Of a stretch of 64,000 nucleotides of DNA, positions 41,490-41,535 are shown piece after piece (the stretch's first letter is position 1; every line of letters begins with the position of its first letter). A model generated the notes under the pieces. That model saw only the letters and a list, made by a program, of their open reading frames with translations, was not told where the DNA came from and did not search any database. The DNA is taken from NCBI RefSeq assembly GCF_044647545.1, contig NZ_CP172818.1; one strand, given 5' to 3'. The translations under genes were made by a program, and so were the position numbers. Origin of the DNA: Escherichia coli. Its GTDB lineage: Bacteria; Pseudomonadota; Gammaproteobacteria; Enterobacterales; Enterobacteriaceae.

Positions 41490-41535
41490 TGTTCCCCTCA
41501 CCCTAACCCTCTCCCCGGAGGGGCGAGGGGGCTGT
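41490..41535. other. GC-rich palindromic element / probable bidirectional terminator between convergent yabI and thiQ
   Basis: cccctcaccctaaccctctccccggaggggcgagggggctg; arms cctctcccc / ggggcgagg. Confidence 0.5.

What the first reader, a model, noticed from the sequence alone, without database searches (positions are those of the whole stretch)
41490..41535. GC-rich palindromic element between convergent yabI and thiQ
cccctcaccctaaccctctccccggaggggcgagggg forms a C-rich/G-rich hairpin that resembles a recurring enterobacterial intergenic repeat rather than a simple terminator. It probably acts as a bidirectional terminator or insulator between the two convergent transcripts.
Basis: inference. 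Interest (0 to 1): 0.2.

Follow-up and report, generated by a model that had tools for sequence, protein, structure and literature searches.

The report
Known BoxC repeat between yabI and thiQ
The GC-rich palindrome is a copy of a long-known E. coli intergenic repeat (BoxC, also called PIT, TMECO or HPG1) which in this strain replaces the REP repeats that most E. coli carry at this spot, and it is probably not a two-way terminator.

Summary
Window 41494-41530 holds the quoted C-rich/G-rich palindrome between the stop codons of yabI (41464) and thiQ (41546). On the minus strand it reads CCCTCGCCC-CTCCG-GGGAGAGGG-TTA-GGGTGAGGG-G. This fits the published TMECO consensus exactly and is identical to K-12 copy no. 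23. It is therefore a BoxC / PIT / TMECO 'type A mm' / HPG1 element, a family described in 1992, 2000, 2015 and 2016. The family has a median of 19 places per E. coli genome.

At this locus the element is a minority allele, found in about 233 of 5,426 genomes. Another 4,453 genomes carry two REPs and 384 carry one. Salmonella and Citrobacter carry a single REP, so the BoxC allele looks derived.

The 'bidirectional terminator' reading is only weakly supported. Neither strand has a hairpin with an adjacent U-tract. Published reporter assays found no terminator activity. K-12 adk mRNA reads through its BoxC copy in the thiQ-like orientation. However, K-12 Term-seq shows RNA 3' ends 2-4 nt past the hairpin at several copies, mostly in the yabI-like orientation.

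Most likely it is a dispersed, unstable repeat whose RNA hairpin can mark or protect the yabI 3' end. It is already known and of low interest.

The parts
41494..41530 (-). Core of the BoxC / PIT / TMECO (type A, one mismatch) / HPG1 element. The minus strand reads CCCCTCGCCCCTCCGGGGAGAGGGTTAGGGTGAGGGG.
   Evidence: Exact match to the TMECO consensus. Identical to K-12 TMECO no. 23 in Table 1 of PMC4666352. Contains the exact HPG1 21-mer.
41521..41529 (-). Block 1, CCCTCGCCC on the minus strand. This is the pyrimidine arm. Its G is the family's conserved 'mismatch' position.
41516..41520 (-). Loop 1 (CTCCG on the minus strand).
   Evidence: The same loop is found in K-12 copies 18 and 23.
41507..41515 (-). 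Block 2, GGGAGAGGG on the minus strand.
41504..41506 (-). Loop 2, TTA on the minus strand. This loop defines 'type A' / HPG1.
41495..41503 (-). Block 3, GGGTGAGGG on the minus strand. It is the third-strand block of the proposed triplex and the fourth G-tract region of the proposed G-quadruplex.
   Evidence: The 12-bp deletion allele joins blocks 2 and 3 into one C-block.
41472..41493 (+). Family-specific left flank, TTTGCACCGGCGCTGGTTTGTT. It includes the outer inverted-repeat arm GCACCGG (41475-41481).
   Evidence: Conserved in copies at bacA-cca, soxR, gudD-barA and iscR-trmJ (alignment A2). 67-bp matches at 91% identity to other loci.
41531..41543 (+). Family-specific right flank, GGCTGTCCGTGCGC. 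It includes the outer arm CCGTGC (41536-41541).
   Evidence: Alignment A2. 66-bp matches at 92% identity to the fimH-side copy. Outer stem in the predicted folds.
41544..41547 (+). TTTT run directly after the outer stem on the + strand. It overlaps the thiQ stop codon. It is the only U-run that could serve a weak yabI terminator.
   Evidence: Not called by the terminator scan.
40700..41464 (+). yabI (DedA family). Its mRNA would carry the C-rich strand of the element, starting 30 nt after the stop codon.
41546..42244 (-). thiQ (thiamine ABC transporter ATPase). Its mRNA would carry the G-rich strand, starting 16 nt after the stop codon.

Best explanation
The element is a solo copy of the E. 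coli dispersed intergenic repeat known as BoxC, PIT element, TMECO type A (one mismatch) or HPG1. Together with its family-specific flanks it fills nearly the whole 81-bp yabI-thiQ spacer.

In this lineage, about 4% of complete E. coli genomes, it has replaced the REP/BIME elements that occupy the same spot in most E. coli and in Salmonella and Citrobacter. How the replacement happened is inferred: recombination or gene conversion from another BoxC copy.

It is not a classical bidirectional intrinsic terminator. The most likely activity is at the RNA level and depends on orientation.
- yabI transcripts carry the C-rich-then-G-rich hairpin. They probably acquire 3' ends 2-4 nt (or about 11 nt) past the stem. 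The hairpin would act as a barrier to 3'-to-5' exonucleases after Rho-dependent or run-off termination, as REP hairpins are known to do.
- thiQ transcripts, in the G-rich orientation, probably read through.

At the DNA level the three-block design makes the site prone to slippage. This is seen in the 12-bp deletion allele, which keeps the hairpin but loses the third block.

Shown: identity, copy number, allele distribution, outgroup state, and 3' ends at other K-12 copies. Inferred: behaviour of this copy, the exonuclease-barrier mechanism, and the route of replacement.
For: Identity:
- Exact fit to the TMECO consensus.
- Identical to K-12 TMECO no. 23.
- Exact HPG1 21-mer.
- The identical 22-mer lies in the ycjD-fabI (envM) spacer. 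The paper that named BoxC is the envM sequence paper, and K-12 TMECO no. 9 lies at that position.
- Median of 19 places per genome.
- Flanks are shared with seven other loci.

Locus history:
- BoxC allele in 233 genomes, 2-REP allele in 4,453, 1-REP allele in 384.
- Salmonella and Citrobacter spacers (38 and 27 bp) hold one REP.

RNA 3' ends at K-12 copies (Adams et al. 2021 supplement):
- 3781065(+) is the primary 3' end of lldD. It lies in a Rho region and has an intrinsic score of 1.32.
- 4231270(-), 632098(+) and 3959467(-) are the other three sites.

Read-through in the opposite orientation: adk mRNA ends at 497939/40, about 60 nt beyond its BoxC copy.

Deletion allele: folds at -30.9 kcal/mol against -31.5 kcal/mol for the full form.
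Against: - No transcript data exist for this strain or this locus.
- The copy with the identical core (fimH side) and the fabI and phnP-side copies show no Term-seq 3' end. This may only reflect low expression.
- Only four sites of roughly 25-30 K-12 copies show 3' ends.
- Reporter assays (Hoyne & Maher 2002, cited) saw no effect on transcription.
- Predicted folding energy is not better than shuffled sequence.
- REP ancestry rests on two outgroup species. Independent REP insertions cannot be excluded.
Confidence: 0.6

Rival explanations
1. Bidirectional intrinsic (factor-independent) terminator or insulator. It would stop both the yabI and thiQ transcripts by hairpin-dependent release of RNA polymerase.
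For: - Position between convergent genes.
- Strong GC hairpins on both strands.
- A TTTT run follows the outer stem on the + strand.
- Several family copies have a T-run after the right flank.
- Term-seq 3' ends occur at some K-12 copies.
- Kaplan et al. considered a terminator role plausible.
Against: - No terminator-like site in the spacer by the scan.
- No U-tract on the thiQ-sense strand.
- The lldD-copy 3' end has an intrinsic score of 1.32 (below 3) and lies in a Rho region.
- adk mRNA reads through its copy.
- Published assays found no terminator activity.
- Many copies lie upstream of genes or inside operons such as pstA-pstB.
Confidence: 0.08
2. Its main consequence is at the DNA level. 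It would be a non-B DNA former: an intrastrand purine-motif triplex or G-quadruplex on the G-rich strand, and possibly an i-motif or pyrimidine-motif triplex on the C-rich strand. Such a structure stalls replication or repair and makes the locus unstable, with no role in transcription.
For: - Triplex shown in vitro by CD and NMR, and TMECO loci are more variable than controls.
- G4/hairpin switching seen by CD.
- The G-rich strand here is a textbook G3N3G3N3G3N3G3 motif.
- This locus has at least four alleles, including a 12-bp deletion within the C-runs of blocks 2 and 3 (CCC repeats).
- Across phyla the third-block variable base is T or A only, as the purine-motif triplet rules allow.
Against: - In vivo DMS footprinting did not detect the triplex, and duplex wins once the complement is present.
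- Polymerase blocks were seen in vitro only.
- REP-bearing alleles at this site vary as well, so the variability is not specific to BoxC.
Confidence: 0.2
3. Selfish or neutral repeat with no function at this site. It would have been spread by an unidentified trans-acting enzyme or by recombination between copies, and is simply tolerated in a 3' intergenic spacer.
For: - Patchy presence among strains.
- Replacement of an ancestral REP.
- Conserved flanks beyond the core.
- In other phyla the same core is embedded in lineage-specific longer repeats with tens of copies.
- No functional class is shared by neighbouring genes.
Against: - No terminal inverted repeats or target duplications were seen.
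- Almost never on plasmids: 67 of 97,451 places.
- Holder et al. found no link to mobile elements.
- No candidate transposase is known.
- Term-seq ends at four copies show that at least some copies affect RNA.
Confidence: 0.3
4. Chance GC-rich palindrome with no relation to other sequences.
For: Folding energy is no better than shuffles.
Against: - Exact 35-nt consensus match with 0.00 expected.
- About 19 copies per genome.
- Identical to a catalogued K-12 copy.
Confidence: 0.01

Closest known systems
BoxC (Bergler et al. 1992; Bachellier et al. 1999), also called PIT elements (Hoyne et al. 2000) and TMECO type A mm (Holder et al. 2015, PMC4666352)
   Same: The 36-nt core is identical to K-12 TMECO no. 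23. It fits the consensus CCCTCNCCC-N3-6-GGGNGAGGG-N3-GGGNGAGGG exactly. It is intergenic, multi-copy, and has the TTA second loop and the G 'mismatch' in block 1. It shares flanks with other copies.
   Different: This locus carries no copy in K-12 MG1655, where two REPs sit instead. The copy here is solo, not paired with an inverted type B copy as at five K-12 sites.
HPG1 G-quadruplex/hairpin/duplex switch motif (Kaplan et al. 2016, PMC5100583)
   Same: It contains the exact 21-mer GGGAGAGGGTTAGGGTGAGGG preceded by the C-rich block. The convergent-gene context matches 6 of 16 K-12 members.
   Different: This is a different name and structural reading for the same family. G4 formation was not tested here.
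REP / BIME elements
   Same: REPs are also short GC-rich palindromic intergenic repeats and occupy exactly this spacer in other E. coli, Salmonella and Citrobacter. They are known from the literature (my own knowledge) to form 3' mRNA hairpins that block exonucleases. REP-associated 3' ends appear in the same Term-seq table.
   Different: There is no sequence similarity. The REP consensus is absent from the window spacer (alignments). BoxC has three blocks rather than two arms, and no RAYT-type transposase has been linked to it.
Rho-independent (intrinsic) terminators
   Same: A GC-rich stem-loop downstream of a stop codon.
   Different: There is no U-tract adjacent to the core stem on either strand, and the stem-loop is long, interrupted and has a large loop. 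A family member scored 1.32 on the intrinsic-terminator scale, where more than 3 is suggestive.

Membership tests
BoxC / PIT / TMECO | Consensus 5'-CCCTCNCCC N3-6 GGGNGAGGG N3 GGGNGAGGG-3' (Holder et al. 2015) | tested here: met
   One exact match at 41495-41529 on the minus strand, with 0.00 expected in shuffles. The 36-mer is identical to Table 1 no. 23.
BoxC / PIT / TMECO | Dispersed, multi-copy, chromosomal and intergenic | tested here: met
   Median of 19 places per genome in 5,425 genomes; 97,384 chromosomal against 67 plasmid places; no annotated feature under the matches. Here it lies between two stop codons.
BoxC / PIT / TMECO | Same family as the element named BoxC at envM (fabI) | tested here: met
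   The identical 22-mer CCCTCACCCTAACCCTCTCCCC occurs in the K-12 ycjD-fabI spacer. This is TMECO no. 9. BoxC is attributed to the envM paper.
BoxC / PIT / TMECO | Type A (second loop TTA) with one mismatched triplet | tested here: met
   Loop 2 is TTA and block 1 is CCCTCGCCC against block 2 GGGAGAGGG.
BoxC / PIT / TMECO | Forms an intrastrand purine-motif triplex as isolated single-stranded DNA | not testable with these tools
   Shown by CD and NMR for type A mm oligonucleotides in PMC4666352, not for this copy. Not detected in vivo.
HPG1 (Kaplan et al. 2016) | Exact motif dGGGAGAGGGTTAGGGTGAGGG with an upstream C-rich block | tested here: met
   Zero-mismatch match at 41495-41515 on the minus strand. 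The motif is quoted.
HPG1 (Kaplan et al. 2016) | Switches between G-quadruplex and hairpin depending on cation | not testable with these tools
   Only CD data from the paper are available.
REP / BIME | REP consensus of about 35 bp (GCCGGATGCG...CTTATCCGGCCTAC-like imperfect palindrome) | tested here: not met
   No match with up to 3 mismatches anywhere in the window. The window spacer does not align with the REPs of K-12, strain 131, Salmonella or Citrobacter.
Intrinsic terminator | Short GC-rich stem with a 3-8 nt loop, immediately followed by a U-rich tract | tested here: not met
   The scan finds no site in 41465-41545. The minus strand has no T-run after the stem. The plus strand has TTTT only after a 65-nt compound stem.
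Intrinsic terminator | Terminates transcription in vivo or in vitro | not testable with these tools
   Indirect evidence only. There was no terminator activity in Hoyne & Maher 2002 (cited). adk mRNA reads through its copy. There are 3' ends at four other copies.
Any Rfam RNA family | Covariance-model match at or near the gathering score | tested here: not met
   The only hit is a sub-threshold chance match, Antizyme_FSE at 19.2 bits against a gathering score of 40, E = 0.68.

The most novel reading that the evidence does not exclude
BoxC may be an orientation-dependent RNA 3'-end module that is functionally interchangeable with REP at convergent gene junctions. Transcripts carrying the C-rich-first strand (yabI here; lldD and cstA in K-12) would get hairpin-defined 3' ends, while G-rich-first transcripts (thiQ here; adk in K-12) would pass through.

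Beyond that, the near-identical core is found from Enterobacteria to Verrucomicrobia, cyanobacteria and an archaeal MAG. Its 'free' positions are fixed (block 2 N = A in 139 of 140 hits; block 3 N = T in 130 of 140). This could reflect recognition by a conserved, still unidentified protein or mobilising enzyme, rather than structure alone.
Probability: 0.15. Interest if true: 0.5.

Novelty: already known. Interest (0 to 1): 0.15.

Why it matters
For genome annotation, this spacer should be labelled as a BoxC/TMECO repeat rather than as a predicted terminator. RefSeq annotates nothing under it.

The family's biological role is still unsettled after 30 years. Hairpin, triplex, G-quadruplex and instability hotspot have all been proposed. 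This site is a tidy natural experiment for that question, because the same convergent junction carries four alternatives in different strains:
- one REP;
- two REPs;
- a full BoxC;
- a BoxC with a 12-bp deletion that keeps only the hairpin.

Comparing yabI and thiQ 3' ends and mRNA stability across these alleles would show whether BoxC does what REP does. Nothing here changes current understanding of the family.

Tried and rejected
- Rfam scan of 40500-42500 at E up to 10 gave only sub-threshold chance hits.
- The promoter/terminator consensus scan found nothing in the spacer.
- A search for further copies in the 64-kb window found none. A 3-mismatch hit at 45483-45504 turned out to lie in an artefactual homopolymer tract.
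- The REP consensus search in the window found nothing.
- A literature search with 'Box C, BIME, IRU, RSA' returned only irrelevant papers.
- The original BoxC and PIT papers (1992, 2000, 2002) were not opened or looked up here. Their content is cited second-hand from PMC4666352.
- Term-seq coordinate look-ups at the fimH-, fabI- and phnP-side copies found no 3' ends. This is uninformative about function because expression may be low.
- I considered fetching all 18 K-12 loci for a systematic flank and T-run count. I used the published context table and an 8-copy alignment instead.
- I looked for a conserved outer flank across phyla. GCACGG occurs upstream in only 7 of 140 hits, mostly in Pseudomonas, so there is no universal flank.

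Full report
**What is in the sequence**

The window is the E. coli araC-yabI-thiQ-thiP-thiB region. Across the 8 kb compared it is essentially identical to strain FDAARGOS_497 up to about position 45,100. yabI (+) ends with TAG at 41462-41464. thiQ (-) ends with TAA at 41546-41548. This leaves an 81-bp spacer.

Its arms CCCCTCACCC and GGGCGAGGGG are 9/10 complementary with 17 nt between them. An alternative inner register, CCCTCTCCCC/GGGGCGAGGG, closes a 3-nt loop.

The predicted RNA hairpins are strong: -21.6 and -24.5 kcal/mol for the 46-mer on the two strands, and about -34 kcal/mol for the whole spacer. They are no stronger than dinucleotide shuffles of the same C-run/G-run composition (z between -0.9 and -1.75). 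Folding energy alone therefore does not set the element apart. Its sequence does.

**Identity**

On the minus strand the element reads CCCTCGCCC-CTCCG-GGGAGAGGG-TTA-GGGTGAGGG-G.
- This is an exact match to the TMECO consensus of Holder et al. 2015 (CCCTCNCCC N3-6 GGGNGAGGG N3 GGGNGAGGG). There is one match in the window against 0.00 expected (consensus quoted).
- The 36-mer is letter-for-letter identical to K-12 MG1655 TMECO no. 23, a 'type A mm' copy on the fimH side.
- Holder et al. state that these are the elements earlier called BoxC (Bergler et al. 1992, the envM paper) and PIT elements (Hoyne et al. 2000).
- The identical 22-mer occurs in the K-12 ycjD-fabI (envM) spacer, which is TMECO no. 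9.
- The G-rich half is also the exact 'HPG1' motif dGGGAGAGGGTTAGGGTGAGGG of Kaplan et al. 2016.
- Petrillo et al. 2008 list BoxC among the known stem-loop repeat families of E. coli.
- Rfam has nothing for it, and RefSeq annotates nothing under it.

**Copy number and extent**

The 51-mer around the element has a median of 19 places per genome (range 2-34) in 5,425 of 5,426 complete E. coli genomes. Almost all are chromosomal: 97,384 places against 67 on plasmids.

I aligned the window copy with copies at bacA-cca, fimH, soxR, gudD-barA, adk-hemH, iscR-trmJ and ycjD-fabI. Family similarity runs well beyond the 36-nt core. It covers roughly GCACYGGTGCTGGYCTGTT, then the core, then ACTGTCCGTGC, and includes an outer inverted repeat GCACYGG/CCGTGC.

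The repeat plus its flanks therefore accounts for about 41472-41543, which is nearly the whole spacer. Several other copies are paired with an inverted type B copy, as published. The window copy is solo.

**History of this locus**

The spacer is polymorphic.

| Allele | Spacer | Example | Complete genomes |
|---|---|---|---|
| Two REPs (BIME) | 113 bp | K-12, strain 536 | 4,453 |
| One REP | 86 bp | O157-like strains | 384 |
| BoxC (full form, plus a 12-bp internal deletion form) | 81 bp and 69 bp | the window strain; TCM3e1 for the deletion | about 233 |

Roughly 70 of the 233 BoxC genomes carry the deletion form.

Salmonella enterica and Citrobacter freundii have 38-bp and 27-bp spacers made of a single REP. 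The parsimonious reading is that REP occupancy is ancestral and the BoxC allele is a derived replacement. This is an inference, and independent REP insertions cannot be ruled out.

The 12-bp deletion joins blocks 2 and 3 into one C-block. It keeps the hairpin (-30.9 against -31.5 kcal/mol) but removes the capacity for triplex or G-quadruplex. This is the kind of degeneration Holder et al. describe at TMECO loci.

**Is it a bidirectional terminator?**

Sequence evidence:
- The consensus scan finds no terminator-like site in the spacer.
- The thiQ-sense strand has no U-run after the hairpin.
- The yabI-sense strand has only UUUU after a roughly 65-nt compound stem.

Published tests: PIT elements showed no promoter or terminator activity and no effect on RNA polymerase (Hoyne & Maher 2002, as summarised).

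In vivo data from other copies: I searched the curated Term-seq 3'-end tables for K-12 MG1655 (Adams et al. 2021, PMC7815308, supplementary files 1-3) by motif and by coordinate.

Four BoxC-type sites carry 3' ends.
- 3781065(+) is classed as the primary 3' end of lldD. It lies 3-4 nt past GGGAGAGGGG of TMECO no. [quoted passage not shown]
- 4231270(-) lies 2-3 nt past GGGGCGAGGGG of a degenerate copy.
- 632098(+) lies 11 nt past the G-arm of the cstA-side copy.
- 3959467(-) lies 3 nt past block 2 of type B copy no. 20.

Three of these four sites are in the C-rich-first orientation, the one that yabI mRNA has here.

By contrast, no 3' end contains the G-rich type A sequence. adk is well expressed and reads into TMECO no. 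6 in the G-rich-first orientation, as thiQ does here. Its mRNA ends at 497939/40 at a canonical hairpin-plus-U terminator about 60 nt beyond the BoxC copy.

No 3' ends were recorded at the fimH-, fabI- or phnP-side copies, which may only reflect low expression.

I estimate from the file size that supplementary file 1 holds roughly 2,400 rows. On that estimate, well under one coincidence would be expected by chance within about 15 nt of about 30 copies. Four sites therefore looks like real enrichment, but this estimate is rough.

**Most likely mechanism**

The element is a member of a dispersed repeat family whose spread mechanism is unknown. At this site it most plausibly behaves like the REPs it replaced.

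When it is transcribed as the yabI 3' UTR, its hairpin would define or protect the RNA 3' end after Rho-dependent or run-off termination. Hairpin barriers to 3' exonucleases are established for REP and for Rho-dependent transcripts. That point rests on my own knowledge of Newbury et al. 1987 and Dar & Sorek 2018, which were not retrieved here.

In the thiQ direction, read-through is more likely. A true bidirectional intrinsic terminator is unlikely; I put it at about 0.08.

The DNA-level readings are real in vitro: the triplex and the G4/hairpin switch. The triplex was not detected in vivo. These structures do fit the allelic instability at this site.

**Wider distribution**

These included Pseudomonas, Polaromonas, Methylomagnum, Contendobacter, Hyphomicrobiales, Verrucomicrobiales, Deltaproteobacteria, a Scytonema cyanobacterium, a Bacteroidaceae MAG and a Methanomicrobiaceae MAG.

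In 140 hits the pattern's free positions are nearly fixed:
- block 2 N is A in 139;
- block 3 N is T in 130 and A in 10;
- block 1 N is T in 74 and G in 65.

The flanks are lineage-specific, and in some genomes the core sits inside longer repeats. Breadth of this kind was already reported: more than 260 genomes, and 'conserved throughout bacteria'. It remains unexplained.

**Verdict**

The 'bidirectional terminator/insulator' half is at best half right, in one orientation, and probably through RNA 3'-end protection rather than intrinsic termination. The element is already known under four names, so interest is low.

Noticed in passing
window 45110-45700: About 600 bp of extreme homopolymer-rich sequence, with A-runs up to about 30 and G-runs up to about 19. 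In the otherwise near-identical FDAARGOS_497 record, a normal espY2 (T3SS effector) gene sits at this position between the thiB TPP riboswitch and sgrR. It looks like a base-calling or assembly artefact in the source genome, not biology. It also produced a spurious 3-mismatch hit to the BoxC half-motif at 45483-45504.
   Followed up: partly
window 41465-41545 compared with L001, L002, L003, L133, L135: The same convergent junction carries unrelated repeats in different genomes: one REP (Salmonella, Citrobacter, O157-like E. coli), two REPs (K-12 and 82% of E. coli), BoxC (about 4%), or BoxC with a 12-bp deletion that keeps the hairpin but loses the third block. This is a natural allelic series for testing what these repeats do.
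   Followed up: yes
K-12 NC_000913.3 497843-497940 (adk-hemH); no window coordinates: adk mRNA passes through a BoxC copy in the G-rich orientation and ends at a canonical intrinsic terminator about 60 nt downstream (Term-seq 497939/40). All type A BoxC-associated 3' ends found were in the C-rich orientation. This possible orientation bias was not noted in the papers read.
   Followed up: partly
L007-L126 (genome-contig hits): The BoxC core occurs with almost fixed 'free' positions (block 2 N = A in 139 of 140; block 3 N = T or A only) in very distant phyla, including an archaeal MAG. It is often embedded in lineage-specific longer repeats, for example more than 25 copies in MAG GL140_5_metabat_74 and about 10 in the Verrucomicrobiales MAG. 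Pseudomonas sp. BN411 copies share the upstream GCACGGACAGCC flank with E. coli.
   Followed up: partly
window 41453-41464 compared with other BoxC loci (alignment A2): The last codons of yabI (GTTGGGGTTTAG) align with the GGGGTGAGGG block of the inverted type B partner seen at paired BoxC loci. This may be chance, or microhomology that guided the replacement. Because K-12 has the same yabI end without a BoxC, it is not a remnant created by the insertion.
   Followed up: no
window about 44828-44927 (-): The TPP riboswitch (sroA) upstream of thiB, annotated in the matching public record. It is known and expected.
   Followed up: no
L006 7766-7896 (FDAARGOS_497; the window equivalent lies downstream of the artefact region): sgrT is annotated as a frameshifted pseudogene in the closest public genome.
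   Followed up: no
window 41229-41501 (-): A 90-aa GTG-start ORF antisense to the 3' end of yabI starts inside the BoxC element. It is almost certainly spurious and is not annotated in RefSeq.
   Followed up: no
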